A DNA stretch of 62,810 nucleotides from an uncultured Ectothiorhodospiraceae bacterium (GTDB taxonomy: Bacteria; Pseudomonadota; Gammaproteobacteria; HK1): positions 1 to 62,810 of the forward strand of contig CAZSDY010000001.1 of assembly GCA_964605765.1 (NCBI GenBank), written 5' to 3'. The notes under the pieces were generated by a model, which had not been told where the DNA came from, searched no databases, and worked only from the letters and a program-made list of their open reading frames with translations. Positions within the stretch are counted from its first letter, which is position 1. Each line of letters begins with the position of its first letter. Both the position numbers and the translations under genes were made by a program. Positions 46,401 through 61,453 of the stretch are shown piece after piece.

Positions 46401-46414
46401 TTGACTTAGGTCAA
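46401..46414. promoter_or_regulatory. FNR/DNR-type box TTGAC-TTAG-GTCAA upstream of the Crp/Fnr regulator gene
   Basis: Perfect inverted half-sites, 82 nt upstream of the ATG at 46496. A TAGAAT -10-like hexamer sits at 46457-46462. Confidence 0.6.
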
Positions 46415-46495: not shown

Positions 46496-47206
46496 ATGAC
46501 CGCTGATGAAGCCGTCGAGGTTGGCGATCTGCGCGGGATCCACCTCTTCGCGAGTCTCGATGACTCCCAAATCCGACGGGTTGCCGAGCACATGCGGGTC
46601 GAGCGATTGGCGGACGGCGAGCGCTTGTTCGACTTCGGCGATCCGGCGCGGCGCTTCTACTATCTGCGTAGCGGGATGCTCAAATTGTACCGGCTTTCCC
46701 CTGAGGGCGTGGAGAAGGTCATCTGGTTCGTACGTCCGCGTGAAACCTTCGCCGAAGCGATCATGTTCATGGACAAGGGCGACGCCTATCCGGTGAGCGC
46801 CGAGGCCATCGCGCCGAGCGTGGTGCAGAGCTTCGACAATGCCACCATGCTGGCGATCCTGCGCGAATCCACGAGCTGTTGTTTTCGGGTGATGGCGGCA
46901 ATGAGCCGGCGGCTGCGCCAACAGGTCGAAGAGATCGACCGCCTGACGTTACACAACGCGACCTATCGATTGGCGAATTTCCTGTTGCAGCAGATCCCAC
47001 TGGGCGTATTCGAATCCCCCGAGCTGCTCTTGACCATGCGCAAGCATGACATCGCGTCACGGCTCGGGATTGCGCCGGAGACACTGTCACGCATGCTGGC
47101 ACGGCTCGGCCAGCGGGGGCTGATTCAGGTCGACCGTCAGAACATTGTGTTGCGCGATATCGATGGATTGCGTCGCCTCGTCGATGTGGAGCGTGCGAAA
47201 GCGTAG
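46496..47206 (+). CDS. Crp/Fnr-family transcriptional regulator, DNR/NnrR-type (no FNR Cys cluster)
   Basis: cNMP-binding-like fold (HLFASLDDSQIRRVAEHM...), C-terminal HTH with the E--SR recognition motif (IAPETLSRMLARL), and no N-terminal Cys cluster. ATG at 46496 with a GGGGGAAGG SD. Confidence 0.85.
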   Translation: MTADEAVEVGDLRGIHLFASLDDSQIRRVAEHMRVERLADGERLFDFGDPARRFYYLRSGMLKLYRLSPEGVEKVIWFVRPRETFAEAIMFMDKGDAYPVSAEAIAPSVVQSFDNATMLAILRESTSCCFRVMAAMSRRLRQQVEEIDRLTLHNATYRLANFLLQQIPLGVFESPELLLTMRKHDIASRLGIAPETLSRMLARLGQRGLIQVDRQNIVLRDIDGLRRLVDVERAKA

Positions 47207-47263: not shown

Positions 47264-47449
47264 ATGGATATCGTCCTCTTTACCATTACCGCAATTGCGC
47301 TGTATGCATTTTCGGACTGGGTGGTACGGCGTATCGAGACGGCGCGAGGCGGCGTGATGAAGAATCGTTCACTGGTGTTCTTCGCGATTATCACGCCGTT
47401 GGCTTTACTCAGCTTTGCCCTGATACGCCACCTGCTCGCTTCGGGCTGA
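47264..47449 (+). CDS. small two-TM membrane protein
   Basis: 61 aa. AGGAGAG SD 6 nt upstream of the ATG. Two hydrophobic helices flank RRIETARGGVMKNR. Confidence 0.5.
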   Translation: MDIVLFTITAIALYAFSDWVVRRIETARGGVMKNRSLVFFAIITPLALLSFALIRHLLASG

Positions 47450-47494: not shown

Positions 47495-47508
47495 TTGACT
47501 TAAGTCAA
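47495..47508. promoter_or_regulatory. FNR/DNR-type box TTGAC-TTAA-GTCAA upstream of the heme-copper oxidase operon
   Basis: Perfect palindrome. A TTAGAT -10-like hexamer at 47531-47536 puts the box centre near -41.5 (class II geometry). 86 nt upstream of the ATG at 47594. Confidence 0.65.
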
Positions 47509-47593
47509 GGCGGGGAATGCTCGCTTCCCTTTAGATCAGCTCGCCAGGCATGGGCACGCGTCCATGACCGCTTCGGCTCTGGAGGGAAAATTG

Positions 47594-47764
47594 ATGGTGG
47601 ACGAGAAAGAACCGGTCGCCCCGACCGAAGAAGAGCGAATTCCGGTGATGCAGCAGATTCTGGATAACCCGTTTCTGCTGTTGTTTCTGGGGGTCACCAT
47701 ACCAGCGGTGCTGTACGTGATCTGGGGAGTGATAGAAGTCGTGCAGATACCCATCGGGCAATAA
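47594..47764 (+). CDS. small single-TM protein, first gene of the oxidase operon (possible subunit IIa-like accessory subunit)
   Basis: GGAGGG SD 7 nt upstream of the ATG at 47594. 56 aa with one TM helix, FLLLFLGVTIPAVLYVIWGVI. Confidence 0.55.
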   Translation: MVDEKEPVAPTEEERIPVMQQILDNPFLLLFLGVTIPAVLYVIWGVIEVVQIPIGQ

Positions 47765-47784
47765 AGAACACAGGGGGAAACGTC

Positions 47785-48318
47785 ATGTCTGCAATCTCAC
47801 CGCCGGAAGTACGCGTCTGGTGGCGGACGCCGATTGGTCGCACCGAGCTCGTGTGGATGACGATAGCCTTCCTGTGGGGGCTGTTCATGTTCTTCATGAT
47901 GATCTACTGGCACGGGGCGGGCGGTCAGAATCTTTCCAACGAAGCCTATCGCACCACGCCGGAGCGTTTCGCGGCAAAAACCGACGCGATGATCGAGAAG
48001 TACAAGGTGCGCGAGGAAAACGGTTACCCCGTGGTGCACCCGCCCGCGGGCAGCGACGTGTATATATTCGGCCGGCGCTGGCAGTGGTGGCCGATTCTTG
48101 AACTGGAAAAGGGCAAGAGCTATCGCATCCACCTGACCTCGCTCGACTGGGCGCACGGCTTTTCCCTGCAGCCGGTCAATCTCAACATCCAGGTGCAGCC
48201 GGGCTACGAGATGGTCTTCAAATTGACGCCCACCGAAAGCGGTGAGTTCACCATCGTCTGCAACGAATATTGCGGCATCGGACATCATCTGATGCTCGGC
48301 AAGATCTTCGTCAAGTAG
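47785..48318 (+). CDS. heme-copper oxidase subunit II, single TM plus CuA cupredoxin domain
   Basis: 177 aa, close to ba3 subunit II in size. CuA ligand pattern WAHGF ... CNEYCGIGHHLM (H, CxExCxxxHxxM). Confidence 0.85.
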   Translation: MSAISPPEVRVWWRTPIGRTELVWMTIAFLWGLFMFFMMIYWHGAGGQNLSNEAYRTTPERFAAKTDAMIEKYKVREENGYPVVHPPAGSDVYIFGRRWQWWPILELEKGKSYRIHLTSLDWAHGFSLQPVNLNIQVQPGYEMVFKLTPTESGEFTIVCNEYCGIGHHLMLGKIFVK

Positions 48319-48339
48319 CCGGGACCAGGGGGAGTAGAC

Positions 48340-50043
48340 ATGGCAAAGCAAGACCAATATCGTATCTGCCCGGCGACCGGGCTGCGCATCTACCGATCGG
48401 CGGAAAATCTCATCAAGGCCAACGCGGTGGTCGCGGTGATCTTTCTGGCGGTCGGCGGCGTGTTCGGGGTCGGGGTGGCCTTGACCCGTTGGCCGGCGGT
48501 GCACATGCTGCCGGCCGACTGGTTCTATCTGGCGCTGACCGCCCATGGCCTGGACATCCTGGTGGTCTGGGTGATTTTCTTCGAGATCGCGATCCTCTAT
48601 TTCGCCTCCGCGGTGCTGCTCAGCTCACGTCTGGCAACGCCCAGGTGGGCTTGGGCGGGCTTCATTCTGATGCTCGTCGGCGCCGCGGTGACGAACTACG
48701 CGGTGCTCCAGGGACAGTCGAGCGTGATGTTCACGTCTTATCCGCCGATGCAAGCCGCGCCGCATTACTATCTCGGCATCGTGCTGTTCGCGGTGGGGGC
48801 GCTGATTGCCTGTTTCGTGTTCTTCGGGACCTTGGTGATCGCGAAAAACGAGCAAACCTACGAGGGATCGGTACCGCTGGTGACCTTCGGTGCGATCACC
48901 GCCGCGATCATCGCGGTGTTCACCATCGCTTCGGGGGCGATCATTCTGATCCCGACCTTCCTGTGGTCGGTGGGACTCGTCAGCCACATCGATCCGGTGA
49001 TGTACAAGGTCGTCTTCTGGGCCTTCGGGCACTCCTCGCAGCAGATCAACGTGGCGGCGCACGTCGCGGTGTGGTATGCAATCGCCGCGATCCTGTTCGG
49101 CGCCAAGCCGCTGTCCGAGAAGGTCAGCCGCGGGGCCTATCTGCTCTACATCCTGTTCCTGCAGCTTGCCAGCGCCCACCACTTGCTGGTCGAGCCGGGG
49201 ATCAGTTCGGCGTGGAAGATCTTCAACACCAGCTACGCCATGTACCTCGCGGTGCTCGGCAGCCTGATCCACGGGATGACGGTGCCCGGCTCGATCGAGG
49301 CCGCGCAGCGGGTGCGCGGATACACCCACGGCATGTTCGAGTGGCTGCGCAAGGCGCCGTGGGGCAATCCGGCCTTTTCCGGCATGTTCCTTTCGCTAGT
49401 TGGCTTCGGCGTGCTCGGCGGCATTACAGGGGTGGTGCTCGGCACTGAGCAGATCAACCTGTTCATGCACAACACGCTATACGTGCCGGGCCATTTCCAC
49501 GGCACCGTGGCGGTCGGGACCACGCTCGCCTTCATGGCGCTTACCTATCTGGTGGTGCCGTTGATCTTCCAGCGCGAGATCATCCTCAAGGGTTGGGCCA
49601 AGTGGCAGCCCTACGTGTTCGGCGCCGGGGTGATCGGGATCTCGGTATTCCAAATGGCCGCCGGGGTGCTCGGGGTGTCGCGCCGCCATTGGGATATCAC
49701 CTTCGCCGACGCACCGCTGCATTTCAGCTACCCTGATTCGGCGATCCTGATGATGAGCCTGAACGGCATCTCCGCGCTGCTCGCGTTTGTCGGCGGCGGC
49801 ATGTTCGTGGTCGTGATTGTGGGCTCGATCCTGTTCGGCAAGAGCACCAAGTCTTCCGAGGCCGCCGAAGAGAAGAAGCCGGGCGTGGCACCGCCGATCG
49901 GATCCGCCGTCGGCCAGTATGGCAGCGCGGGTGTGCACGGCATTCCGGGAACCGCGGTGCTCGTGAGCGTGTTTTTCGTCGCCTTCGTGCTCTACTATTT
50001 CGTCAACTGGAAGTACGTTTCCGAGCTCTGGCTACTGGGCTAG
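48340..50043 (+). CDS. heme-copper oxidase subunit I, B-family-like, lacking the cross-linked Tyr (candidate NO reductase type)
   Basis: 567 aa. His69, His231, His280/281 and His385/387 line up with T. thermophilus ba3 His72, His233, His282/283 and His384/386. Position 235 (ba3 Tyr237) is Gln, in GHSSQQ. Confidence 0.8.
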   Translation: MAKQDQYRICPATGLRIYRSAENLIKANAVVAVIFLAVGGVFGVGVALTRWPAVHMLPADWFYLALTAHGLDILVVWVIFFEIAILYFASAVLLSSRLATPRWAWAGFILMLVGAAVTNYAVLQGQSSVMFTSYPPMQAAPHYYLGIVLFAVGALIACFVFFGTLVIAKNEQTYEGSVPLVTFGAITAAIIAVFTIASGAIILIPTFLWSVGLVSHIDPVMYKVVFWAFGHSSQQINVAAHVAVWYAIAAILFGAKPLSEKVSRGAYLLYILFLQLASAHHLLVEPGISSAWKIFNTSYAMYLAVLGSLIHGMTVPGSIEAAQRVRGYTHGMFEWLRKAPWGNPAFSGMFLSLVGFGVLGGITGVVLGTEQINLFMHNTLYVPGHFHGTVAVGTTLAFMALTYLVVPLIFQREIILKGWAKWQPYVFGAGVIGISVFQMAAGVLGVSRRHWDITFADAPLHFSYPDSAILMMSLNGISALLAFVGGGMFVVVIVGSILFGKSTKSSEAAEEKKPGVAPPIGSAVGQYGSAGVHGIPGTAVLVSVFFVAFVLYYFVNWKYVSELWLLG

Positions 50044-50113
50044 CAGGTATGGGAACGGTGCATATCGCGCGGGGCGCGGGCCCTAGCGGGGCGGCGCAAG
50101 GGAACGGATCCGT

Positions 50114-50986
50114 ATGAGTGACACGCTGCGAGTGCTGTTTTCGGTGTTCAAGCTGCGCATCGGCTTCGCGATCATGTTGTGCACCTTGGCCGGAATCGCG
50201 ATAGCGCCCGGTGTGGGGCTGCAATCCTGGCAGGTGGCGGTACTGGCATTGGCGGTACTGATGTCTTCGGCGAGCGCCGGGGCCTTCAACCAACTCGTGG
50301 AGCGCGATCTGGACGTGCGCATGCGGCGCACCCGCCAGCGACCTTTCGTAACCGGCCGTTTTCGTGCGGGTTGGCGCTGGTACGCCGTGACTGCTCTGTT
50401 GGTGATCGTCGCGGTAGTGGCGGCGGGGTGGGCGACCAATGCCGTGGCGGCCGTGAACGTGTTGCTCGGCGCCGTGACTTACGGCATCGTCTATACGCTA
50501 TGGCTGAAACGGCGCACCCGTTTGAATATCGTGATCGGTGGGCTGGCCGGGAGTTTCGCGGTCCTCGCGGGAGCCACGGCGGTCGATGCGAACCTGGCGC
50601 CGGCGCCGCTGATCCTGGCGCTGGTGCTGTTCCTGTGGACGCCGCCGCATTTCTGGAGCCTTGCTTTCGCCTACCGCGAGGACTATGCGCGGGCCGGCGT
50701 GCCTATGCTGCCGGTGGTCGTCGGCGAACGCGCCGCGGCGCGCGCGATCTTCGCCCATACGGTGGCCCTGGTCGGGCTGTCGCTGGTACCCGTCGTATTC
50801 GGGGCCGGCTGGATTTATCTGCTCGGTGCCGGCGCCGGAGGCGCGGTGTTCGTGCGGGAAAGCTGGCGGCTGTTGCGGCATCCGTCGACCGTGTTGGCGA
50901 TGAAGAACTTCCATGCCTCCCTGATCCAGCTCGGGGCGTTGCTGGGGGCGACGATCCTCGATGCGTGGTTGATCGCAGGCGAATGA
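50114..50986 (+). CDS. ctaB: protoheme IX farnesyltransferase (heme O synthase)
   Basis: UbiA-family polytopic protein with NQLVERDLDVRMRRTRQRP and WTPPHFWSLA motifs. Confidence 0.88.
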   Translation: MSDTLRVLFSVFKLRIGFAIMLCTLAGIAIAPGVGLQSWQVAVLALAVLMSSASAGAFNQLVERDLDVRMRRTRQRPFVTGRFRAGWRWYAVTALLVIVAVVAAGWATNAVAAVNVLLGAVTYGIVYTLWLKRRTRLNIVIGGLAGSFAVLAGATAVDANLAPAPLILALVLFLWTPPHFWSLAFAYREDYARAGVPMLPVVVGERAAARAIFAHTVALVGLSLVPVVFGAGWIYLLGAGAGGAVFVRESWRLLRHPSTVLAMKNFHASLIQLGALLGATILDAWLIAGE

Positions 50987-51837
50987 TACCGGCGGGCAGA
51001 CCGTGCCGGGTGGCGGTGGGGTTATTGTCACTGGCGCTTGGTGCGCCGGCGCCGGGCGTGGCGGCCGCAACGCCTCATTCGGCGACCGCGTTCGACGCCG
51101 ATCAGGCGCTCGCAGCCAGCCGGGCGACGCTCGGCGTGCGTTTGGGCAGGCACCGCTTCACCACCCGTGATGGCCGCGAGGTCAGCTTGCGGGCGTTGGC
51201 CGCCGGCCGTCCCCTGGTGTTGAGCCTGATCTACACCGGTTGTTATCACGTTTGCAGTGTCTCGACCCGCCATCTGGGTGGTGCGGTGCGGGTGGCACGT
51301 GAAGCGTTGGGGGACACGTTCGCGGTAGCCACGGTGGGATTCGATAGCGCCGCGGATACGCCCGCGCGGATGCGCGCCTACGCGCGCCGGCAAGGCGTTG
51401 CCGACGTGCTGGACTGGGCGTTCTTGAGCGGCGACGCCGCGAACATCGCCGCGCTCGTGAAAGACGTGGGATTCAGTTACTTCCGTTCCCCCAAGGGCTT
51501 CGACCATCTGGTTCAGACGACCGTCGTCGATGCCGAGGGGCGGGTCTACCGGCAGATTTACGGCGATGCATTTCAACCGCCGGCCCTGGTCGAACCACTC
51601 AAGGAGTTGGTGTTCGGCCGCGCGGTAGATGCCTCGGCGGGCTCCGTCGAGGCCTGGACCAATCGCCTGTTGTTGTTCTGTACCCTCTACGACCCGGCAT
51701 CCGGACGCTACCGCTTCGACTACTCGATATTTGTCGGAATCGGGGTGGGGATATTGGTTCTCGGCTCGCTCGGTGGATTCTTGGTGCGCGCCTGGAACGA
51801 GAATCTTCGGCGATCGAGTCATGGCAGCCGGGGTTAG
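50983..51837 (+). CDS. SCO1/SenC-family copper chaperone with a C-terminal TM anchor
   Basis: Signal/anchor, CxxxC motif LIYTGCYHVCS and downstream His (FDHLVQTTVVDAEGRV). ATG at 50983 overlaps the ctaB stop (ATGA). Confidence 0.8.
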   Translation: MIPAGRPCRVAVGLLSLALGAPAPGVAAATPHSATAFDADQALAASRATLGVRLGRHRFTTRDGREVSLRALAAGRPLVLSLIYTGCYHVCSVSTRHLGGAVRVAREALGDTFAVATVGFDSAADTPARMRAYARRQGVADVLDWAFLSGDAANIAALVKDVGFSYFRSPKGFDHLVQTTVVDAEGRVYRQIYGDAFQPPALVEPLKELVFGRAVDASAGSVEAWTNRLLLFCTLYDPASGRYRFDYSIFVGIGVGILVLGSLGGFLVRAWNENLRRSSHGSRG

Positions 51838-51843
51838 CCGCGG

Positions 51844-53433
51844 ATGGCGGTCAACGGCGGCATTGCACGACGCGGATTGGAGCGCGTGGAAAAGGCCTTC
51901 GATGCCGCATTCACGCCTGCTTGGAACCCGCTCAGCCAGCTCGGTGCGCTCGGCTGGTTCTTCTATTGGATCGTCGCGGTCAGCGGGATTTACCTCTACG
52001 TCTTTTTCGACACCGGCATTCATGCGGCCTACGACTCCGTCGAACACTTGACGCACGCGCAGTGGTACGCCGGCGGCGTGATGCGCAGCCTCCATCGCTA
52101 CGCCTCCGACGCGATGGTGGTGGTGATGTTGTTGCACCTGACGCGCGAATTCGTCATGGGGCGCCTGCGGGGTCCGCGCTGGTTCACCTGGCTGGTCGGC
52201 ATCCCGGTGTTATGGGCGGTGTTTGCTTCCGGTATCAGTGGTTACTGGCTGGTGTGGGACCGTTTGGCGCAGTATGTCGCGGTGGCAACCACCGAGTGGC
52301 TCGACGCCTTGCCGCTGTTCGGCCAGCCCATCGCGCACAACTTCCTCCACCAGGGGACCCTCAGCGGGCGCTTTTTCACCCTGATGATTTTTATCCACAT
52401 CGGGGTGCCGCTGTTTCTGTTGTTTCTGATGTGGCTGCACATCAGCCGGCTTTCACACGCCAGGGTGAATCCGCCGCCGGGGCTGGCGCTCGGGAGCCTG
52501 CTGATGCTGGTTGTGGTGGCGCTCTGGCGGCCGGCGCTGAGTCAGGGTCCGGCCGACCTGAACAGCCTCCCGGAGGTGCTGCGCATCGACTGGTTCTATC
52601 TGTTCGCGCTGCCTCTTCAGGACGCCTTTTCGGGCGCCTGGGTGTGGATTGCGGTAGTGGCCGGAAGCTTCGCGTTGATGCTGGCGCCGTGGATGGCGCG
52701 CCGCGTACCGGCGTCGGTGGCGATCGTGAACCTGAACAATTGCAATGGTTGCGGGCGTTGCTGCGCGGACTGCCCTTACGCGGCGGTGAGCTTGCAGCCG
52801 CGCACCGATGGTAGCGCGTACAGCCACGAAGCGGTGGTGCGCGCGGACCTGTGCGCCGCTTGTGGCATGTGTACCGGCGCCTGTCCGACGGCCACGCCGT
52901 TTCGCCGCCGCGGCGAAGTGGTGGCTGGAATCGAACTACCCAACCTCCCGGTGCGCGTATTGCGCGAGCGCGTATTGAAGGCGACGCGCGCGCTGCGCGG
53001 TGATACGCGGGTGTTGATTTTCGGCTGCGAGCGTAGTGCGTCGCTCGCCGTCCTGGACGATCCCGGTATCGCGGTCATGGAGTTGCCGTGTATCGGTATG
53101 TTGCCGCCCGCGTTCATCGATTTCTTGCTCACCCGCCGGCATGTAGACGGGATCGTGCTCGGTGGTTGTCGTGAAGGGAGCTGTTTTCATCGTTTGGGAA
53201 TCGACTGGACGCTGCGGCGGATCGCCGGCGAACGGGACCCCTATCTCAGAGCGCGGGTGCCACGGGAGCGGCTCGTCGCTGCGTTCACGGGGCTGGACGG
53301 GGTGCCCGGGGTGCGCGCCGAGCTGCAAGCGTTGCACGCGCGTTTGCGGGTGCTGGGGGAACTCCGCCGGGTGTCCGGGCAGCGCGCGGATGTGCCGGTG
53401 GTGCAGGCTCAGGCGGAGCGTACCCGTGGCTAA
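51844..53433 (+). CDS. fusion protein: di-heme cytochrome b (bc-type N-terminal domain) + 2x[4Fe-4S] ferredoxin + MvhD/FlpD-like domain
   Basis: Two His pairs, each spaced 14 residues apart (SLHRYASDAMVVVMLLHLTR; FIHIGVPLFLLFLMWLHISR). CNGCGRCCADCP and CAACGMCTGACP. C-terminal FGCERSA...LPCIGMLPPAFIDFLL...GGCREGSCFH. Confidence 0.8.
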   Translation: MAVNGGIARRGLERVEKAFDAAFTPAWNPLSQLGALGWFFYWIVAVSGIYLYVFFDTGIHAAYDSVEHLTHAQWYAGGVMRSLHRYASDAMVVVMLLHLTREFVMGRLRGPRWFTWLVGIPVLWAVFASGISGYWLVWDRLAQYVAVATTEWLDALPLFGQPIAHNFLHQGTLSGRFFTLMIFIHIGVPLFLLFLMWLHISRLSHARVNPPPGLALGSLLMLVVVALWRPALSQGPADLNSLPEVLRIDWFYLFALPLQDAFSGAWVWIAVVAGSFALMLAPWMARRVPASVAIVNLNNCNGCGRCCADCPYAAVSLQPRTDGSAYSHEAVVRADLCAACGMCTGACPTATPFRRRGEVVAGIELPNLPVRVLRERVLKATRALRGDTRVLIFGCERSASLAVLDDPGIAVMELPCIGMLPPAFIDFLLTRRHVDGIVLGGCREGSCFHRLGIDWTLRRIAGERDPYLRARVPRERLVAAFTGLDGVPGVRAELQALHARLRVLGELRRVSGQRADVPVVQAQAERTRG

Positions 53434-54130
53434 GCGTGGCGGCGTGTTGCCCGGGGTGGTTCACGAATCGGGTTTGCGTCCCGCCGCGACTCGCGCGGTG
53501 GCGCAACTGCTTTGCTACATTGCCTTAGGGCTATTGCTCGGCTATTGCTCGGCTACGCCGTACCGCTATGTCGCGCCGGGTGCGGCCGTACTCAAGCTGA
53601 GCTTCGATCATGCCGGAGCGCACGTCACGCCCTGCCGGCGCCGCTCGCCCGCGGAACTGGCGGCTCTCGCGCCGAATATGCGCCAGGTGGCGCAGTGCCC
53701 GCGGGCGCGCGTTGCGGTACGGGTGGAACTCGATCTCGACGGGCGATCATTGTATGGCGCCGATTTGCCGCCCGCCGGGCTCGCCAAGGACGGGGAGTCA
53801 AGCGTCTACCAGCGCTTTACGCTGCGCGCGGGCAAGCATCGGCTGGCCATGCGCCTGCGCGATTCCCGGCGGCGGACGGGATTCGATTACGCGCGCGAAA
53901 TCGCGGTCGAGCTGGCGCCCGGTGGAGTTTTCGTGATCGACTTCAATGCCAAGGCCGGCGGTTTCCAGTTCCCGATCGCCGCACCCTTGCGTAGCGCGCC
54001 GGCGGCAGAGGCCAACCCGGCCGGGGGCATCGACCGGCGAGCGGCCGCACCGCGGCAGGCCGCAATCGACACCCCGGACGCCATGCGCATTGCATTGGCG
54101 CGTGGTCATCGGTCCGACCTTTCGAGATAA
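53426..54130 (+). CDS. hypothetical single-TM protein
   Basis: In the operon, with GTG at 53426 overlapping the preceding stop (other in-frame starts are possible up to about 53444). TM helix AVAQLLCYIALGLLLGYCS, then a beta-rich domain with two Cys and a low-complexity tail. Confidence 0.45.
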   Translation: MAKRGGVLPGVVHESGLRPAATRAVAQLLCYIALGLLLGYCSATPYRYVAPGAAVLKLSFDHAGAHVTPCRRRSPAELAALAPNMRQVAQCPRARVAVRVELDLDGRSLYGADLPPAGLAKDGESSVYQRFTLRAGKHRLAMRLRDSRRRTGFDYAREIAVELAPGGVFVIDFNAKAGGFQFPIAAPLRSAPAAEANPAGGIDRRAAAPRQAAIDTPDAMRIALARGHRSDLSR

Positions 54131-54137
54131 TCCGGAC

Positions 54138-54533
54138 ATGGCTTTGATCGAATGGAAGGATGCATACGCTCTGGGTGTCCCGAGCGTCGACCTGGAACAC
54201 CGTCAACTCATCGACCTGATTAACGAGTTGCACGAGAGCCTGTGCGGTGATCGCGATGAATCGGCGACGATCGTCGAATTTCTCGGTGAGTTGTGTGCTT
54301 GCATCGGCGCGCACTTCGCCCTCGAGGAACGGATGATGCGCACCAGCGGTTACCCGGATTTTTCCGCGCACAAGGCCGATCACGAGCGGTTGCTCGATGA
54401 GCTTCGTGATTTGATGGATGCCTACGAGGATGGATTGTGCTGCGCTCCGGCACCAGTCTCAGCCAGTCTGGATGTCTGGTTCACGGAGCACTTCGGGAGC
54501 CACGACGCCAAACTCCATGGCAAAGTGGGATAA
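54138..54533 (+). CDS. bacteriohemerythrin (hemerythrin-like metal-binding protein)
   Basis: MALIEWKDAYALGVPSVDLEHRQLIDLIN ... HFALEERMM ... HKADHERLL ... WFTEHFGSHD: the full His/Glu/Asp di-iron ligand pattern. Confidence 0.88.
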   Translation: MALIEWKDAYALGVPSVDLEHRQLIDLINELHESLCGDRDESATIVEFLGELCACIGAHFALEERMMRTSGYPDFSAHKADHERLLDELRDLMDAYEDGLCCAPAPVSASLDVWFTEHFGSHDAKLHGKVG

Positions 54534-54756
54534 TCCCAGGGACTCGGATGCAGGGGCTCCGGGAGCCCCGGGTTGGAAGGCATGATATGGTTGCACGGAC
54601 GACGCTTACGGCCACGGGGTTGGACACCCAGCCCGGGCACGGTGTGCCGGATATGAGCGGTCGTGCTCATCACACTGTTGCTGGGAGCCTGCCACTTCTT
54701 GCGCCGGAAGAGCGGCCCCTAGAAGCCTTTCCGCACAAGTTCTGACTGGCCAGGGG

Positions 54757-56307
54757 CTAATGGCTGGTGCCGCGCGAACGCGTGATCTTGTTCCAGACAT
54801 TGTACTTGCCGGATGGTTTGACCATCGGGATGCGTTTGACCTCGGTGAGGGTCTGTGCATCGTAGACGACGATGGCGCCGCGCATGTCCCATACGCTGAG
54901 CAGAGCGTAGCGTCCGTCGCGGGTGAACTCGACGTGCGCGGCGGTCTTGCCGGGCGCGGGGCGCAGGGTCTTGACGATCTCGAGGGTTCTCTTGTCGATG
55001 ATCTGTTCGGCATCGCGCTCGGGACCGAAAAACACGTCCACCCACGCGTAGGGCGTGTGTTCATGACTGCGCAAGAAAAACCCCGGCCCCAGCGTTTTGA
55101 TGCGCCGGATGGTCTTCCAGGTGCGCATGTCGATCACGCTCACCACCCCCTCTCTCAGGTTGGGCGTCGCGAGCACCGGGCGGCCTTGATAGTCCCAGGT
55201 GATCCCCGAGCCGAGATGCGGCATCCCCGGCAGGTCGACTTCCGCGATCTTGCGCCCGACCAGCAGGCTCACTACCTGACCGTTGCGGGTATTGCGCGCG
55301 GTGCCGATGAGCGTGTCGTAGCTTTGGTCGAAAAAGAAATCGTCGAGATAGTCGTCGAGCCGGATGCGGCGCACCGGGAAGCGTTCGCTGACCTCGGGTG
55401 CTCCTTCGATGCGGTAGTCGTGGACCGGGCCGTAGTAGACCGGGTCATCGCCGTACTGGATCTCCCAGACCTCCGTCAGGTCCTTCAGCGCGGCGATGAA
55501 ACTCTTGCGTGGCGGAGCATCGTAAACGGCGCTGACACGCGACTCGCGTCCCGCCTCGTCTCGCACCGGGACGACCTCGATCAACGAAAGATCGGTGGCG
55601 TCCAGTATCACCAGGGTGTGCGGCAGGTAGTTGCCGACCATCACGTAGCGCCCATCGCTCGAAACCGCGAGATTGCGGGTGTTGACCCCGGCGCGCACCT
55701 CTGCGACGCGCTCCAATCCCCACAGATCGTATTGTGAGATCCAGCCGTCGCGCGACGCGAAGTACACGAAACGCCCTCGCGGCGAGAATTTCGCGCCGCC
55801 GTGCAGTGCGTAGTGGGATTTGAAGCGCGCCAGCCGCTCGAAACGATCACCGTCCACAATGCTGACGTGATGATCGCCGGATTCCACGACCACGAACAGG
55901 TTAAGCGGATCGGCCGCGTACACGGGATGACGGGGAAGCTCGGCGAGCGGGTGGTAAACGGTGTGGCTCGCGCGGATTTCAGCGTTGCCCCAGGGCGGTA
56001 CCCGAGGTAGCGGGGTGTAGATGAAATCGACCAGCGCGTCGATGGCCGAGGCTGCCAGCTCGGTGCTGAATCCGGGCATCTGGGTTGCCGCAAGGCCGTC
56101 GCGAATCGCCGTGCGGGCAGCCGCGCGTTGGAGCCGTTTGAGATTTTGCGGCAACAACGCCGGGCCGATTCCACCGAGGCGATCGGCCCCGTGACAGCGC
56201 GCGCAATGCCGGGCATAGAGAGCCGGCGTATCGGGCGTTGCCGACACCGCGCCGATGCACAAGGCGGCCTGGAAAAAGAGCAGCGCGGTGGCAGGCAGGC
56301 GCGCCAC
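54757..56307 (-). CDS. nirN: NirN (cytochrome c + d1-type beta-propeller; dihydro-heme d1 dehydrogenase)
   Basis: Signal peptide, CARCHG heme-c motif, then a cd1-like propeller. Last gene after nirJ. GTG start. Confidence 0.82.
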   Translation of the reverse strand: MARLPATALLFFQAALCIGAVSATPDTPALYARHCARCHGADRLGGIGPALLPQNLKRLQRAAARTAIRDGLAATQMPGFSTELAASAIDALVDFIYTPLPRVPPWGNAEIRASHTVYHPLAELPRHPVYAADPLNLFVVVESGDHHVSIVDGDRFERLARFKSHYALHGGAKFSPRGRFVYFASRDGWISQYDLWGLERVAEVRAGVNTRNLAVSSDGRYVMVGNYLPHTLVILDATDLSLIEVVPVRDEAGRESRVSAVYDAPPRKSFIAALKDLTEVWEIQYGDDPVYYGPVHDYRIEGAPEVSERFPVRRIRLDDYLDDFFFDQSYDTLIGTARNTRNGQVVSLLVGRKIAEVDLPGMPHLGSGITWDYQGRPVLATPNLREGVVSVIDMRTWKTIRRIKTLGPGFFLRSHEHTPYAWVDVFFGPERDAEQIIDKRTLEIVKTLRPAPGKTAAHVEFTRDGRYALLSVWDMRGAIVVYDAQTLTEVKRIPMVKPSGKYNVWNKITRSRGTSH

Positions 56308-56308
56308 T

Positions 56309-57493
56309 TCAGGCGCGCGCCGGTTGTGTGATTCCCCGGTTGCCGGTGGACAACCCGACCTCGGTATCGTCGAGGTAGCAGCCCGGATCCTCGGCCCATG
56401 GATCGCCCGTGAGTTGTTGGGCGCGCACCCGGGTGTTACCGCCGCAAATGTCGAGGTGGCGGCACGCGCCGCAACGACCCTTGACCGGTCGCGGCCGGGT
56501 CTTCAGGCCGGCCATCAGCGGGTCCGAGCAGTCCTCCCAGATTGTGGAGAAGGGCGTGTCGCGCACGTTCCCCAGCCGATGGTGCGACCAGAAAGTATCC
56601 GGATGCACGTCGCCCAGGTTGTCGATATTGGAGATGTGCACCCCGGACGCGTTGCCGCCCCAGCGGGCCAGGCTCGCGCGCAGGCGAGCGACCCGATCGG
56701 GCGCGAAGCGGGATCGTGCCCAATGCAGCAGATAGACCCCGTCGGCATCATTGTTGCCGGTGACGAACTCCCGCCGGCGCTCGCTCAGCACGTCGTCGAG
56801 GCAGGTCTCGAAGAGCAGGTCCATCGCCCGCCGGGTCATCGAGTGACGGGCGTCCAGGCGCCGGTTACGATTTCCGCGCCCGGCGTAGTTGAGGTGTGAC
56901 AGATAGAACTTGTCGACGTCCTCGATCTGCATCAAGGTCAGCATTTCGGGGAGTTCCGCGGCGTTGTCGGCGGTCAAAGTGAGGCGCAGCCCGACCTTGA
57001 TGCGCCGTTCGCGGCACAGTCGAACGCCTTGCAGAGCGGCGTCGAAGGCCCCCGTCTTGCGCCTGAACCGATCGTGGGTCGCACGCATTCCATCGAGGCT
57101 GATGCCGACGTAGTCGTAGCCCACCGCGCTGATCCGATTGGCCATCGGCTCGTCGATCAGCGTACCGTTGGTTGACAGCGCGACGAAGAATCCGAGCTTC
57201 TTGGCGCGCTCCGATAGGGCGAAGATGTCGCGGCGCATGAGCGGTTCTCCGCCCGACAAGACCAGCACCCGGACACCGTAGTGGTGCAGGTCATCCATGA
57301 CCGCATGAATCTCCTCGGTGCTGAGTTCCCCCGGAAAATCGCGATCGGCCGAGGTCGAGTAGCAGTGCTTGCAGGTCAAGTTGCAGCGTCGCACCAGATT
57401 CCAGATGACCACCGGGCCGGTCGCGGCCGGCGATCGGCGCGGGGGTGACTGAGCCCCGGCCAGTTCGCGGATGAAGTGCGAAACCCGAAACAT
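56309..57493 (-). CDS. nirJ: radical SAM heme d1 biosynthesis protein NirJ
   Basis: CNLTCKHCY radical-SAM cluster motif and a C-terminal SPASM-like Cys cluster (GRCGACRHLDICGG). Confidence 0.9.
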   Translation of the reverse strand: MFRVSHFIRELAGAQSPPRRSPAATGPVVIWNLVRRCNLTCKHCYSTSADRDFPGELSTEEIHAVMDDLHHYGVRVLVLSGGEPLMRRDIFALSERAKKLGFFVALSTNGTLIDEPMANRISAVGYDYVGISLDGMRATHDRFRRKTGAFDAALQGVRLCRERRIKVGLRLTLTADNAAELPEMLTLMQIEDVDKFYLSHLNYAGRGNRNRRLDARHSMTRRAMDLLFETCLDDVLSERRREFVTGNNDADGVYLLHWARSRFAPDRVARLRASLARWGGNASGVHISNIDNLGDVHPDTFWSHHRLGNVRDTPFSTIWEDCSDPLMAGLKTRPRPVKGRCGACRHLDICGGNTRVRAQQLTGDPWAEDPGCYLDDTEVGLSTGNRGITQPARA

Positions 57494-57504
57494 TTGCGCC
57501 TCCT

Positions 57505-58059
57505 TCAGGCGGTGAGCCGAACGCCGGTCTTTTTCAGGATGCGCGTGCTGAACAGCACCTCGTGGCCACGCTGGCGCCGCCCCAGCACAGCCGCGATTCT
57601 TGCCACCCCGGCTGCCACTTCGGAGCGGCTACGGGCGTGGACCATCGCGTACAGGCTGTAGGGCCACTCGGGCGCGCGGCGCACCCGGTGGTAGCAGTGA
57701 CTGACGAAAGGCAGCGCACCGACTTCGGCACCGGCCTCGGCAACGGCTTCATCTGCGACGTCCCACACCGACATGCCGTTGGCCCGGTACCCGAGCGCAT
57801 AATGATTGGGAACCGCCGCAATGCGCCGCACGACGCCCGTGTCGAGCATCCGCTGGAAGCGTTCCATCACGTCCATTTCGCTCAGCCCGAGCCGTAGCGC
57901 GAGGTCGGCGAACGGCCGCGCAACCAAGGGCAATCCCGCGTGGGTGGCCGCGAGTAGCGCGCGATCGATGCTTCCCAGGTCGGGACGGGGGCGAGCACTG
58001 CCGCGCCCGCCCGATACGCCGGCGAGATCCGTGGGCAGAGTCCGATTACGCGGCTGCAC
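57505..58059 (-). CDS. nirH: siroheme decarboxylase subunit, NirH-like (AsnC/Lrp fold)
   Basis: LPLVARPFADLALRLGLSE ... VSHCYHRVRRAPEWPYSLYAMVHA, characteristic of NirD/L/G/H (AhbA/B). GTG start. Confidence 0.8.
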   Translation of the reverse strand: MQPRNRTLPTDLAGVSGGRGSARPRPDLGSIDRALLAATHAGLPLVARPFADLALRLGLSEMDVMERFQRMLDTGVVRRIAAVPNHYALGYRANGMSVWDVADEAVAEAGAEVGALPFVSHCYHRVRRAPEWPYSLYAMVHARSRSEVAAGVARIAAVLGRRQRGHEVLFSTRILKKTGVRLTA

Positions 58060-58074
58060 CGGGCGCTCAGGGTC

Positions 58075-58377: not shown

Positions 58378-58408
58378 GTTTTCTCCTTAGGCTGCCGAGC
58401 CGTGGGCA

Positions 58409-59897: not shown

Positions 59898-59924
59898 CGT
59901 CTCCGGCGCCCCCGGCCGCACGGC

Positions 59925-61432: not shown

Positions 61433-61453
61433 CGTGCTTCGACGCTCCGGCTC

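What the first reader, a model, noticed from the sequence alone, without database searches (positions are those of the whole stretch)
47495..54533. DNR-box-driven eight-gene operon for an atypical CuA heme-copper oxidase with its own cofactor and electron-transfer genes: candidate non-canonical NO reductase system
Eight + strand genes are packed with gaps of 70 nt or less, or with ATGA/GTG overlaps. In order they are a small TM protein, a CuA subunit II, subunit I, heme O synthase, a Sco/SenC protein, a cytochrome b-FeS-MvhD fusion, an unknown TM protein and a hemerythrin. A perfect TTGAC-N4-GTCAA box lies at class II distance from a -10-like hexamer upstream. A cysteine-less Crp/Fnr regulator is encoded immediately upstream, and the heme d1 (nir) cluster lies immediately downstream. 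No canonical norCB is visible in this window. Heme-copper enzymes derived from the B family with altered active sites (the sNOR/eNOR/gNOR-type families) have been proposed, and in one case shown, to reduce NO. The norSY-senC-orf1 cluster of ammonia oxidisers has a similar oxidase + SenC + extra membrane ORF layout. The combination seen here, with ctaB, the tripartite cytochrome b fusion and a hemerythrin, is not a described system to my knowledge.
Basis: partly seen in the sequence, partly recalled or inferred. Interest (0 to 1): 0.85.

Follow-up and report, generated by a model that had tools for sequence, protein, structure and literature searches.

The report
eNOR nitric oxide reductase operon
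This is a well-conserved operon for an eNOR-type nitric oxide reductase, a known and environmentally abundant enzyme family that makes N2O during denitrification, and it also carries three conserved accessory genes whose roles are still unknown.

Summary
Eight tightly packed + strand genes (47564/47594-54533) lie behind a perfect TTGAC-N4-GTCAA box. A Crp/Fnr regulator sits upstream and heme d1 (nir) genes sit downstream. No other heme-copper enzyme is in the window.

Subunit I lacks the cross-link tyrosine and has glutamine in its place (GHSSQQ). It keeps all six histidines, K-channel-like residues and a complete CuA subunit II. That is the published signature of eNOR, a family shown to reduce NO in Rhodothermus marinus. 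It is not an undescribed system.

The layout is strongly conserved. In 65 complete alpha- and gammaproteobacterial loci, the small TM protein, CuA subunit, Sco, cytochrome b-FeS-MvhD fusion and the unknown protein occur in 65/65. Hemerythrin occurs in 61/65, ctaB in 51/65 and all eight genes in 49/65. The FNR-type box recurs in 60/82 loci, with a conserved TAnnnT at class II distance.

The core set (eNOR II/I, heme o synthase, sco1) and cytochrome b-FeS fusions are already noted in a 2026 preprint. The role of the fusion/beta-sandwich/hemerythrin module remains open. I read it as a maturation module, by inference only. In this genome the adjacent ctaA is an internally deleted remnant.

Verdict: new member of a known kind.

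The parts
46401..46414 (.). FNR/DNR-type box TTGACTTAGGTCAA, upstream of the regulator gene
   Evidence: one of three perfect sites in the window (0.08 expected). L001 has a box at the same place upstream of its crp/fnr gene. A TAGAAT hexamer at 46458-46463 would put the box near -62 (class I); this is read directly from the sequence.
46496..47206 (+). Crp/Fnr-family regulator (236 aa) without the FNR N-terminal Cys cluster; DNA-recognition helix reads ETLSR
   Evidence: cNMP_binding + HTH_Crp_2. The best NCBIfam matches (FtrB, Fnr) are below cut-off. The L001 orthologue is 235 aa and 83% identical, dN/dS 0.11. The E--SR motif is read directly from the sequence.
47264..47449 (+). Conserved 61-aa two-TM ORF between the regulator and the box; it lies outside the eight-gene unit
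   Evidence: tblastn hits in 35 of 65 loci at about -1000 nt from subunit I. dN/dS 0.035 against L001. Two hydrophobic segments.
47495..47508 (.). FNR/DNR-type box TTGACTTAAGTCAA, the operon's likely activator site
   Evidence: A perfect TTGA-N6-TCAA sits at the equivalent position in 60 of 82 orthologous loci. DNA similarity to L001 starts exactly here.
47531..47536 (+). -10-like hexamer TTAGAT at class II distance (box centre at -41.5)
   Evidence: Only 3 of 6 matches, and the sigma-70 scan finds no site. Across 45 loci, T (28), A (25) and T (24) are enriched at +29.5, +30.5 and +34.5 from the box centre.
47594..47764 (+). Small single-TM protein, 56 aa from ATG 47594 (the longest ORF starts at 47564); probably a small eNOR subunit
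   Evidence: Present in 65 of 65 loci immediately upstream of subunit II. GGAGGG lies 7 nt before ATG 47594. No Pfam, NCBIfam or PDB match. The subunit role is inferred by analogy with ba3 subunit IIa.
47785..48318 (+). eNOR subunit II: one TM helix plus a cupredoxin domain with a complete CuA site (H...CNEYCGIGHHLM)
   Evidence: The best PDB matches are Thermus ba3 subunit II/CuA domains (1.7e-14), with the His, Cys, Cys, His and Met ligands aligned. 65 of 65 loci.
48340..50043 (+). eNOR subunit I (567 aa): Gln235 replaces the cross-link Tyr. It keeps His69/His387 (low-spin heme), His385 (high-spin heme), His231/280/281 (CuB/FeB site) and the K-channel-like residues Y246, S259, S308, H311 and T314.
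   Evidence: COX1 1.5e-63. Alignment to ba3, 4e-42. Site table and NJ tree. Invariant columns. The Gln criterion for eNOR comes from PMC8756737.
50114..50986 (+). Heme o synthase (CtaB/CyoE)
   Evidence: TIGR01473 equivalog, 254 bits against a cut-off of 210. In the cluster in 51 of 65 loci.
50983..51837 (+). Sco/SenC copper chaperone or thiol-disulfide protein (CYHVC), membrane-anchored
   Evidence: PF02630, 6e-10. 65 of 65 loci. ATGA overlap with ctaB.
51844..53433 (+). Fusion protein: bc1/b6-type cytochrome b (4 TM, two bis-His hemes: H84/H98 and H185/H199), 2 further TM helices, a cytoplasmic 2x[4Fe-4S] ferredoxin domain, and an MvhD/FlpD domain with four Cys
   Evidence: All four His, eight ferredoxin Cys and four MvhD Cys are invariant in 37 homologues. 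65 of 65 loci. Topology is inferred from the cytochrome b fold and the TM count. The AF2 model is poor (pLDDT 61).
53426..54130 (+). Unknown protein: N-terminal TM helix plus a beta-sandwich domain (predicted periplasmic). C70, N84-M85-R86, C91, R93 and R95 are invariant and H62 is nearly invariant. A C-terminal tail of about 50 aa is found only in this sequence and its closest relatives.
   Evidence: No Pfam or NCBIfam match. AF2 pLDDT 84, with 97-98 across the sandwich. No PDB fold match below E 0.004. 65 of 65 loci. It is fused to the C-terminus of the cytochrome b-FeS-FlpD protein in the 53%-identity eNOR clade (L087, 715 aa) and to FlpD in P0362 and P0380.
54138..54533 (+). Single-domain bacteriohemerythrin (131 aa) with the full di-iron ligand set (H21, H59, E63, H78, H82, H116, D121)
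   Evidence: NF033749, 101 bits against a cut-off of 84. The closest solved protein is a 131-aa bacteriohemerythrin, 4xpw, 3.5e-14. 61 of 65 loci. Ligands are read directly from the sequence.
54587..54719 (+). Remnant of heme a synthase ctaA. The 5' end (54587-54627) and the 3' end (54657-54719) survive, and about 1 kb between them is deleted. The nnrS gene that follows ctaA in the closest relative is absent.
   Evidence: tblastn with L001 CtaA hits only 19 aa, at 54657-54713. blastn aligns both ends to L001 ctaA. L001 carries hemerythrin-ctaA-nnrS-nirN.
54757..62287 (-). Heme d1 biogenesis cluster: nirN, nirJ, nirH/G-like genes, a cytochrome c gene, nirDL, nirF and nirE
   Evidence: Pfam Cytochrom_D1, Radical_SAM, NirdL-like_HTH/AsnC_trans_reg2 and TP_methylase. 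One further NirG/H-like ORF at 58377-58845.
62590..62603 (.). Third FNR/DNR-type box, TTGACCAAAGTCAA, with GATTAT at class II spacing. It lies upstream of a + strand gene that starts at about 62793 and runs off the contig.
   Evidence: The hexamer and the start codon with its SD are read directly from the sequence.

Best explanation
**What it is.** The locus is the operon of an eNOR-family nitric oxide reductase.

**Regulation.** A Crp/Fnr-family activator without an Fe-S cysteine motif is encoded just upstream and appears to be autoregulated. It binds the TTGAC-N4-GTCAA box centred about 41.5 bp before the start site and switches the operon on together with the neighbouring nir genes. This would happen under low O2 or in the presence of NO (inferred).

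**Catalysis.** Subunit II takes electrons from a periplasmic carrier through CuA. Subunit I passes them through a low-spin heme to a high-spin heme/non-heme metal site that has Gln instead of the Tyr cofactor. There 2 NO are reduced to N2O. Protons probably arrive through a K-channel-like path, so the step may conserve energy. The small TM protein is probably a third subunit.

**Maturation half.** CtaB makes the heme o precursor and Sco loads or reduces the CuA site. The always-linked pair, cytochrome b-2[4Fe-4S]-MvhD fusion and TM-anchored periplasmic beta-sandwich protein, forms one unit, because the two are fused in another eNOR clade. That unit moves electrons across the membrane.
- I read this pair as a cofactor-maturation device, about 45% likely. 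It would be a metal reductase/chaperone comparable in architecture to CcoG of cbb3 oxidases, or an electron donor for heme modification.
- I read the hemerythrin as an O2 binder that serves or protects this maturation at trace O2.

**Shown versus inferred.**
- Shown: domain content, diagnostic residues, synteny, box conservation.
- Inferred: NO-reductase activity (by family membership), regulation, and all accessory roles.
For: **Family assignment.**
- Gln replaces ba3 Y237 in the motif GHSSQQ.
- The six His and the residues Y246, S259, S308 and T314 are kept.
- The CuA ligands are complete.
- In the NJ tree the Gln clade has 89% support. It contains the window, three gammaproteobacterial representatives, the 53%-identity clade and a haloarchaeal Natrarchaeobius protein. 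It is split at 100% from ba3-type enzymes.
- The literature uses Gln as the eNOR diagnostic. The R. marinus eNOR reduces NO and not O2.

**Context.**
- d1/nir genes are adjacent here and lie within 10 kb in 19 of 51 large loci.
- nnrS is linked in 14 of 65 loci.
- No other HCO is in the window.

**Regulation.**
- Three boxes against 0.08 expected.
- 60 of 82 loci carry the box, with a TAnnnT element conserved in position.
- The regulator carries an E--SR helix.

**Synteny.** 65/65 for g1, g2, sco, the cytochrome b-FeS fusion and the unknown protein; 61/65 for hemerythrin; 51/65 for ctaB. dN/dS is 0.05-0.25.

**Accessory unit.**
- A Rosetta-stone fusion joins the two proteins.
- The heme and Fe-S ligands are invariant.
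- The beta-sandwich has an invariant Cys pair and Met, and a nearly invariant His.
- All genes downstream of subunit I that can be named are assembly genes (ctaB, sco, and ctaA in relatives).
- CcoG has a membrane part, two [4Fe-4S] clusters and a periplasmic Ig-like domain, and it is an HCO assembly factor.
- The hemerythrin's closest solved relative is a 131-aa bacteriohemerythrin. Where ctaA is in the operon direction, it directly follows the hemerythrin gene.
Against: **On the enzyme.**
- No activity, heme or metal data exist for this protein.
- I could not obtain the R. marinus reference sequence or the curated HCO HMMs. Membership therefore rests on diagnostic residues, a small NJ tree and literature statements.

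**On regulation.**
- The -10 hexamer is weak (3 of 6), and no promoter was called.
- The regulator scores below every NCBIfam cut-off, so calling it 'DNR' is a guess.

**On the accessory roles.**
- The unknown protein has no sequence or significant fold similarity to CcoG/FixG_C or to any chaperone.
- The fusion protein's model is unreliable.
- The cytochrome b-FeS fusion and the unknown protein are more tightly linked to eNOR than ctaB or ctaA are. This fits a structural or electron-supply role at least as well as a heme-maturation role.
- A preprint proposes a respiratory quinol:NAD+ function for a Ferrigenium variant.
- The haloarchaeal eNOR locus lacks all three accessory genes.
- This genome has lost the adjacent ctaA, and nothing shows where its heme a, if any, comes from.
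Confidence: 0.8

Rival explanations
1. The cytochrome b-FeS-MvhD fusion and its beta-sandwich partner are a respiratory electron-input or electron-coupling module, not a maturation device. They would link the quinone pool or a cytoplasmic donor to NO reduction in a supercomplex with eNOR. A preprint proposes this for the Ferrigenium variant that carries FAD and NADH domains.
For: - Both proteins occur in 65 of 65 loci, more often than ctaB (51) or ctaA (8).
- The bc1-type cytochrome b has both bis-His hemes invariant.
- The Ferrigenium proteins were detected in the proteome under denitrifying Fe(II) oxidation, and a quinol:NAD+ oxidoreductase role was proposed for one of them.
- MvhD domains are electron-transfer adaptors in Hdr/Mvh complexes (family knowledge; PDB matches).
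Against: - eNOR has a complete CuA site, which receives electrons from the periplasm, whereas the Fe-S domains of the fusion are predicted to be cytoplasmic.
- No Rieske or cytochrome c partner is encoded.
- The gene sits among assembly genes.
- The haloarchaeal eNOR locus lacks it, and the 2024 study reports eNOR as a CuA-containing enzyme assayed with ascorbate/TMPD, without mention of such subunits.
Confidence: 0.3
2. The enzyme is a high-affinity B-family O2 reductase used for microaerobic respiration. Its FNR-type control would simply reflect low O2.
For: - The closest solved structures are ba3/B-type oxidases.
- CuA, K-channel-like residues, ctaB, Sco and (in relatives) ctaA are all typical of oxidases.
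- An O2-binding hemerythrin is encoded in the operon.
- The sister sequences keep the Tyr.
Against: - The redox-active Tyr that HCO O2 reduction requires is replaced by Gln in every member examined.
- The purified R. marinus eNOR did not reduce O2 with any donor tried.
- The operon is linked to nir and nnrS genes.
Confidence: 0.04
3. The complex belongs to the eNOR family but serves NO detoxification or NO/O2 homeostasis rather than respiratory denitrification. The hemerythrin would act as a NO or O2 buffer or sensor, or protect the Fe-S clusters of the fusion protein.
For: - The turnover of the characterised eNOR is low, 0.68 NO per s.
- The Ferrigenium preprint raises a detoxification role.
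- Hemerythrin-like di-iron proteins accompany nor genes elsewhere (NorA/DnrN/YtfE), and hemerythrins protect Fe-S enzymes in Campylobacter. Both points come from my own knowledge.
- The operon encodes three Fe-S clusters.
Against: - The hemerythrin here is the classical O2-carrier type, not the YtfE/ScdA type.
- eNOR is the only NOR candidate beside the nir genes in this window.
- eNOR is the most transcribed nor type in denitrifying sediments.
- The conserved proton path suggests an energy-conserving, respiratory role.
Confidence: 0.12

Closest known systems
eNOR of Rhodothermus marinus DSM 4252 (Murali et al. 2024, PMC11214002) and the eNOR family of Hemp & Gennis 2008
   Same: - A B-family-derived HCO with a CuA subunit II.
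- The cross-link Tyr is absent and replaced by Gln, and three His are kept at the non-heme metal site.
- K-channel-like residues include the S309 equivalent.
- Heme-biosynthesis genes sit in the operon, and the context is denitrification.
   Different: - I could not make a direct sequence comparison with the R. marinus protein.
- This is a gammaproteobacterial version.
- It carries a conserved cytochrome b-FeS-MvhD fusion, a beta-sandwich protein and a hemerythrin, which that paper does not describe.
- ctaA is deleted at this locus.
eNOR operon of Ferrigenium straubiae (bioRxiv 10.64898/2026.01.22.701106)
   Same: - It contains eNOR II, eNOR I, heme o synthase, sco1 and a protein of unknown function ('scaffold'), a set the authors call very common.
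- It also contains cytochrome b-[Fe-S] fusion genes.
- It is expressed under denitrifying conditions.
   Different: - One Ferrigenium fusion carries FAD and NADH domains, whereas the one here ends in MvhD.
- No hemerythrin is reported there.
- The authors regard the cytochrome b fusions as unusual. Here they are universal: 65 of 65 alpha- and gammaproteobacterial loci, and also the 53%-identity clade.
Magnetospirillum magnetotacticum 'cytochrome a1-like' hemoprotein (Tamegai/Tanimura & Fukumori), assigned to eNOR by Murali et al.
   Same: - An HCO without cytochrome c oxidase activity.
- From my own memory, its genes are subunit II, subunit I and a heme o synthase, in that order.
   Different: - Its function was never determined.
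- I could not retrieve its sequence or neighbourhood.
Thermus thermophilus ba3 oxidase (B family; PDB 1EHK/1XME)
   Same: - It is the best solved match for subunit I (4e-42) and subunit II (3e-14).
- It has the same heme and CuB histidines, the same CuA ligands, and a single K-type channel.
- It has a small extra TM subunit (IIa).
   Different: - ba3 has the His-Tyr cofactor (Y237) and reduces O2. Here that position is Gln.
- ba3 T312 corresponds to an invariant His311 here.
sNOR (norSY-senC-orf1) of ammonia oxidisers
   Same: - A CuA-type HCO lacking the Tyr, followed by a SenC/Sco gene and a membrane ORF.
   Different: - It is a different HCO family. According to Murali et al., sNOR lacks the S309-equivalent Ser and shares its active site with bNOR. 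Here the Ser is conserved and the Gln signature is that of eNOR.
- Its operon has no ctaB, cytochrome b fusion or hemerythrin.
CcoG/FixG, cupric reductase assembly factor of cbb3 oxidase (Marckmann et al. 2019; review PMC7558416)
   Same: - It is encoded next to HCO structural genes.
- It has a membrane domain, two cytoplasmic [4Fe-4S] clusters and a C-terminal periplasmic Ig-like domain. This matches the architecture of the fusion protein plus the beta-sandwich protein, which are literally fused in one eNOR clade.
   Different: - No sequence or significant fold homology was detected.
- The membrane part here is a di-heme cytochrome b.
- An MvhD domain is added.
- No activity is known.

Membership tests
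eNOR (heme-copper NO reductase family) | HCO subunit I with both heme ligand sets and three His at the CuB/FeB site | tested here: met
   H69/H387, H385 and H231/H280/H281 align with the ba3 ligands. COX1 1.5e-63.
eNOR (heme-copper NO reductase family) | Cross-link Tyr absent, with a conserved Gln at that position (criterion of PMC8756737 / Hemp & Gennis) | tested here: met
   Q235 aligns with ba3 Y237. Gln is found in all six members of the clade, and Tyr in all 22 other sequences compared.
eNOR (heme-copper NO reductase family) | CuA-containing cupredoxin subunit II | tested here: met
   H...CNEYCGIGHHLM aligns with the ba3 CuA ligands.
eNOR (heme-copper NO reductase family) | Conserved K-channel-like polar residues, including the equivalent of ba3 S309 | tested here: met
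   Y246, S308 and H311 are invariant across the clade. S259 and T314 vary in the two most distant members. Positions were mapped through the ba3 alignment.
eNOR (heme-copper NO reductase family) | Clusters with reference eNORs, and scores best with the curated eNOR HMM | tested here: inconclusive
   In the NJ tree it groups with Gln-bearing sequences, including a haloarchaeal one (89% support), apart from the B family (100%). The R. marinus and Magnetospirillum references and the curated HMMs were not available.
eNOR (heme-copper NO reductase family) | Heme As in both heme sites | not testable with these tools
   Only indirect evidence: ctaB is in the operon, and ctaA is present in relatives but deleted here.
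eNOR (heme-copper NO reductase family) | Reduces NO to N2O and does not reduce O2 | not testable with these tools
   This needs a biochemical assay.
B-family O2 reductases (ba3 type) | Redox-active His-Tyr cofactor in helix VI | tested here: not met
   Gln is at the Tyr position. Y246 is the counterpart of ba3 Y248, not a migrated cofactor Tyr.
sNOR | S309-equivalent Ser missing (Murali et al. 2024) | tested here: not met
   S308 is invariant. I did not have an sNOR reference sequence.
gNOR | One active-site His replaced by Asp, and a subunit II without CuA ligands | tested here: not met
   All three His are present, and the CuA site is complete.
nNOR | Low-spin heme ligated by His and Met, with a cNOR-like active site | tested here: not met
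   The low-spin ligands are His69 and His387.
cNOR/qNOR | Cytochrome c subunit NorC, or a fused quinol-binding N-terminal domain, with C-family relatedness | tested here: not met
   Subunit II is a CuA cupredoxin. The closest structures are B family, and no NOR structure was matched at E <= 1e-5.
FNR/DNR-type regulon (Crp/Fnr class II activation) | TTGAT/C-N4-A/GTCAA palindrome centred about 41.5 bp upstream of the start site | tested here: met
   A perfect box, present in 60 of 82 loci, with TAnnnT at +29.5 to +34.5. The start site itself was not mapped.
FNR/DNR-type regulon (Crp/Fnr class II activation) | Regulator of the DNR/NnrR (NO-responsive, Fe-S-free) subgroup | tested here: inconclusive
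   It has no N-terminal Cys cluster and carries an E--SR helix (read directly from the sequence). All NCBIfam matches are below cut-off.
CcoG/FixG-type cupric reductase assembly factors | Membrane protein with two [4Fe-4S] motifs and a periplasmic Ig-like domain | tested here: met
   Eight invariant ferredoxin Cys. A TM-anchored beta-sandwich that is fused to the Fe-S protein in L087. This is a match in architecture only.
CcoG/FixG-type cupric reductase assembly factors | Sequence or fold homology to FixG / FixG_C | tested here: not met
   No Pfam hit even at E <= 10. The best PDB fold match has E 0.004, to a CARDB domain.

The most novel reading that the evidence does not exclude
Three genes travel with eNOR in most alpha- and gammaproteobacterial genomes examined: the di-heme cytochrome b-2[4Fe-4S]-MvhD fusion, its periplasmic Cys/His/Met beta-sandwich partner, and a bacteriohemerythrin.

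On the most novel reading they form a previously unrecognised maturation machine that lets denitrifiers build an O2-dependent, copper- and heme-a-type enzyme at trace O2. The hemerythrin would capture O2 for heme o to heme a conversion. The fusion/beta-sandwich unit would carry electrons across the membrane, either to reduce and deliver the metal or to feed the heme-modifying step.

This would answer the question, raised in the 2026 Ferrigenium preprint, of how eNOR matures under near-anoxic conditions.
Probability: 0.25. Interest if true: 0.65.

Novelty: new member of a known kind. Interest (0 to 1): 0.38.

Why it matters
eNOR is reported as the most abundant and most transcribed NO reductase type in estuarine and coastal sediments. 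Woeseiales-type Gammaproteobacteria are reported there as the main net N2O producers, so this operon is a typical unit of environmental N2O formation.

Recognising it as eNOR corrects the usual database label of 'cbb3-type' or 'cytochrome c oxidase subunit I'. It also changes the reading of this genome from 'nir without nor' to a potential denitrifier that goes at least as far as N2O.

The useful new point is comparative. Three uncharacterised genes are as tightly linked to eNOR as its own subunits are, and an FNR-type box with a -10 element conserved in position is shared across two proteobacterial classes. That gives concrete deletion targets for two questions: how eNOR receives its metals, hemes and electrons, and whether trace O2 is required.

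Tried and rejected
**Look-ups that failed.**
- An exact look-up of the window's subunit I in the contig index found nothing on record. I therefore annotated the window by ORF calling and Pfam batches.
- I looked for residue-level definitions of eNOR, sNOR and gNOR in Murali et al. They are in figures and supplements that are not held. I used the Gln criterion from PMC8756737 instead.
- The genome scan with a six-sequence alignment returned only relatives at 65-77% identity (586 of 600 matched stretches encoded a relative; 80 loci kept). No Rhodothermus, Magnetospirillum, Accumulibacter or Nitrosomonas references came back. Direct comparison with characterised eNOR or with sNOR was therefore impossible.

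**Structure work that led nowhere.**
- The AlphaFold model of the cytochrome b-FeS-MvhD fusion was poor (pLDDT 61), so I did not use it for fold search.
- The fold search of the beta-sandwich protein gave only generic Ig/CBM-like matches (best E 0.004). Pfam at E <= 10 gave nothing consistent.
- The small TM protein has no PDB match.

**Readings rejected.**
- sNOR, gNOR, nNOR, cNOR/qNOR and a B-family oxidase; see the membership rows.
- A NO dismutase reading. That family is qNOR-derived, and the characterised eNOR yields N2O.
- The idea that ctaA simply lies elsewhere in the window. tblastn finds only the remnant.

**Literature.** Searches for eNOR with hemerythrin, and for bacteriohemerythrin with NO reductase, found no report of the linkage.

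Full report
**1. Observation**

The eight + strand genes are real and tightly packed.
- ORF calling and start-codon inspection, with Pfam and NCBIfam, give the following.
  - A small TM protein. The ORF starts at 47564, but ATG 47594 follows a GGAGGG by 7 nt and gives 56 aa, matching the 57-aa orthologue in the closest relative.
  - A cupredoxin subunit II (47785-48318).
  - A heme-copper subunit I (48340-50043; COX1 1.5e-63).
  - Heme o synthase (50114-50986; TIGR01473 254 bits, above its cut-off).
  - Sco/SenC (50983-51837).
  - A cytochrome b + 2x[4Fe-4S] + FlpD/MvhD fusion (51844-53433).
  - A protein with no family match (53426-54130).
  - A bacteriohemerythrin (54138-54533; NF033749 above cut-off).
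- The gaps are 20, 21, 70, -4, 6, -8 and 7 nt.
- dN/dS against a 94%-identical relative is 0.05-0.25 for all eight genes.

The box TTGACTTAAGTCAA lies at 47495-47508.
- The window holds three perfect TTGAY-N4-RTCAA sites, against 0.08 expected.
- One is upstream of the Crp/Fnr regulator gene, one is here, and one is upstream of a gene that starts at the contig end beside the nir genes.

- Downstream on the - strand are nirN, nirJ, nirDL/G/H-type genes, a cytochrome c gene, nirF and nirE.
- The rest of the window is housekeeping, and none of the ORFs scanned there is a heme-copper enzyme.

- The regulator has two cysteines, though it lacks the FNR cluster motif.
- The -10 hexamer TTAGAT matches only 3 of 6 positions, and no sigma-70 promoter is called.

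**2. What subunit I is**

- The best solved relatives are B-family oxidases, with Thermus ba3 at 4e-42.
- In that alignment ba3 Y237, the cross-linked tyrosine needed for O2 reduction, is a glutamine here (GHSSQQ).
- All six metal-ligand histidines are kept.
- Four ba3 K-channel residues (Y248, S261, S309, T315) have identical counterparts (Y246, S259, S308, T314). T312 is an invariant His311.
- Subunit II aligns with the ba3 CuA domain, with all ligands in place.
- Schwartz et al. (PMC8756737) define eNOR by exactly this Gln. They report such sequences, often mislabelled as cytochrome c oxidases, in Alpha-, Beta-, Gamma- and Deltaproteobacteria.
- Murali et al. (PMC11214002) purified the Rhodothermus marinus eNOR. 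They showed that it reduces NO but not O2 and that it contains heme As. They note that many eNOR operons carry ctaA, and that eNOR keeps a ba3-like channel including the S309 serine, which sNOR lacks.

I aligned 28 sequences: representatives from the 50%-identity library, three closer gammaproteobacterial homologues, the window's protein, and ba3.
- The window's protein groups with the other Gln-bearing sequences at 89% NJ bootstrap. These are the gammaproteobacterial homologues, a 53%-identity clade, and a haloarchaeal Natrarchaeobius protein at 40-41% identity.
- Tyr-retaining archaeal sequences (motif GHxxQY) are their sisters.
- A 100% split separates the group from ba3-type enzymes.
- The gNOR, nNOR, sNOR and cNOR/qNOR signatures are not met; see the membership rows.
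- I could not obtain the R. marinus sequence or the curated HMMs, so membership is strong but not formally closed.

**3. How common and how conserved**

- The protein search returned the maximum of 8000 homologues, with hundreds at about 75% identity. Where named, they come from Gammaproteobacteria and Woeseiaceae.
The best 80 loci (65-77% identity) come from Gamma- and Alphaproteobacteria.
- I ran tblastn of the window's proteins against all loci. Counts in the 65 non-duplicate loci with complete flanks:

| Gene | Loci with it |
|---|---|
| Small TM protein | 65 |
| CuA subunit | 65 |
| Sco | 65 |
| Cytochrome b-FeS-MvhD fusion | 65 |
| Unknown protein | 65 |
| Hemerythrin | 61 |
| ctaB | 51 |
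| ctaA | 8 |
| nnrS | 14 |
| All eight genes | 49 |

- The core genes keep the same order and strand in these loci.
- A cytochrome d1-domain gene lies within 10 kb in 19 of 51 large loci.
- The gene order is therefore conserved, and the second refutation criterion also fails to refute.

**4. Regulation**

- A perfect TTGA-N6-TCAA lies 240-400 nt upstream of subunit II in most of the 60 of 82 loci that carry one. About 0.008 per locus is expected from base counting.
- When 45 of these are aligned on the box, T, A and T are enriched at +29.5, +30.5 and +34.5 from the box centre. This is a TAnnnT -10 element at class II spacing.
- DNA similarity to the closest relative begins exactly at the box.
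- The adjacent regulator carries the E--SR recognition helix typical of FNR-type proteins, and it has its own box.
- Its subgroup (DNR, NnrR or other) cannot be assigned.
- Activation by low O2 or NO is inferred, not shown.

**5. Accessory genes**

The fusion protein:
- It has a bc1/b6-type cytochrome b core. Both H-x13-H heme pairs, all eight ferredoxin cysteines and the four MvhD cysteines are invariant in 37 homologues.
- From the fold and the TM count, the Fe-S domains should be cytoplasmic (inferred).

The unknown protein:
- It is a TM helix followed by a confidently modelled beta-sandwich (pLDDT 97-98 in the core).
- It has an invariant Cys pair, an invariant N-M-R triplet and a nearly invariant His.
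- It has no significant fold or family match.
- The positive-inside rule places the domain in the periplasm.
- In the 53%-identity eNOR clade it is fused to the C-terminus of the cytochrome b-FeS-FlpD protein. That 715-aa protein lies between sco and ctaB. FlpD + beta-sandwich fusions also exist. The two proteins therefore act as one unit.

The hemerythrin:
- It has all seven di-iron ligands.
- Its closest solved relative is a 131-aa bacteriohemerythrin.

Distribution and literature:
- The haloarchaeal eNOR locus has none of these three genes.
- A 2026 preprint on Ferrigenium lists eNOR II, eNOR I, heme o synthase, sco1 and a 'scaffold protein' as a very common operon.
- It mentions two cytochrome b-[Fe-S] genes, one with FAD and NADH domains, as unusual.
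- It proposes a quinol:NAD+ role and asks how O2 for heme a synthesis is supplied under anoxia.
- I found no report of the hemerythrin linkage.

**6. Mechanism**

- Core (about 0.8): this is an FNR-type-activated eNOR that reduces NO made by the neighbouring cd1 nitrite reductase system. CtaB and Sco serve cofactor assembly.
- Accessory trio: I favour a maturation role, at about 45%. My reasons are as follows.
  - Every nameable gene downstream of subunit I is an assembly gene.
  - The fusion/beta-sandwich unit has the same architecture as CcoG, the cupric reductase assembly factor of cbb3 oxidases: a membrane part, two [4Fe-4S] clusters and a periplasmic Ig-like domain.
  - The beta-sandwich domain carries a Cys/His/Met set typical of copper sites.
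  - Where ctaA is co-oriented, it directly follows the hemerythrin gene.
- The main rival (about 30%) is an electron-supply or supercomplex role. It is favoured by the fact that the pair is linked to eNOR more tightly than ctaB or ctaA are.
- None of this is shown.

**7. A local peculiarity**

- The closest relative carries hemerythrin-ctaA-nnrS-nirN.
- In the window only the first ~40 nt and the last ~60 nt of ctaA survive (54587-54627 and 54657-54719). nnrS is absent.
- All eight operon genes remain under purifying selection.
- So either another ctaA exists elsewhere in the genome, or this enzyme works without heme a.

**8. Verdict**

- The locus is a new member of a known, abundant family. 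eNOR is the most abundant and most expressed nor type in estuarine sediments, where Woeseiales dominate the net N2O producers.
- It is not a new system.
- The remaining interest lies in the universally linked but uncharacterised accessory trio and in the conserved promoter architecture.

Noticed in passing
window 54587-54719: ctaA (heme a synthase) survives only as its 5' ~40 nt and 3' ~60 nt, around an internal deletion of about 1 kb. The nnrS gene that follows ctaA in the 94%-identical relative (L001 17372-18523) is absent. The eight eNOR genes are nevertheless under purifying selection.
   Followed up: partly
window 47264-47449: A conserved 61-aa two-TM ORF lies between the regulator gene and the FNR box. 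It has dN/dS 0.035 against L001 and homologues in 35 of 65 loci. It is probably co-transcribed with the regulator, and its function is unknown.
   Followed up: partly
window 46401-46414 and 62590-62603: Two further perfect FNR/DNR-type boxes. One is upstream of the regulator gene, suggesting autoregulation; L001 has the same. The other, with a GATTAT hexamer at class II spacing, is upstream of a + strand gene that starts at about 62793 (MDISK...) and runs off the contig. That gene could be nirS.
   Followed up: partly
P0130, P0132, P0136, P0143: The closest relatives outside the Gln clade are sequences that keep the Tyr in the motif GHxxQY.N. The two with named sources are archaeal (Hodarchaeales, Thermoproteota). 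They look like the O2-reductase sister group of eNOR.
   Followed up: no
P0178, P0187, P0214, P0270: A separate HCO-like group, with one member from Dehalococcoidia. It has Tyr in place of the first His of the HH pair and Tyr in place of the proximal His of the high-spin heme (motifs FHxxHY, LYH, YFH/YLH/YVH). This is an unusual active site that I did not identify.
   Followed up: no
L087 7844-9337: In the 53%-identity eNOR clade a second, weakly COX1-like 497-aa gene sits immediately upstream of the eNOR genes, next to nirS and napA.
   Followed up: no
window 24001-26000 and 27209-31437: GC content dips to 0.55 against about 0.65 elsewhere. Two adjacent large ORFs (684 and 706 aa) have no Pfam match. 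This could be a foreign or variable segment.
   Followed up: no
literature: PMC9549626 (Magnetospirillum gryphiswaldense transcriptome): An HHE/hemerythrin gene (MSR1_19280, 50-fold), its neighbour MSR1_19290, and a putative 'cytochrome c oxidase' gene (MSR1_08150, M-value 8.1) are among the genes most induced under anoxic denitrifying growth. They might belong to that organism's eNOR operon. I could not check the sequences.
   Followed up: no
window 45719-45991 (- strand): A thioredoxin-like small ORF next to the regulator is also present at the same place in L001, L003 and L004.
   Followed up: no
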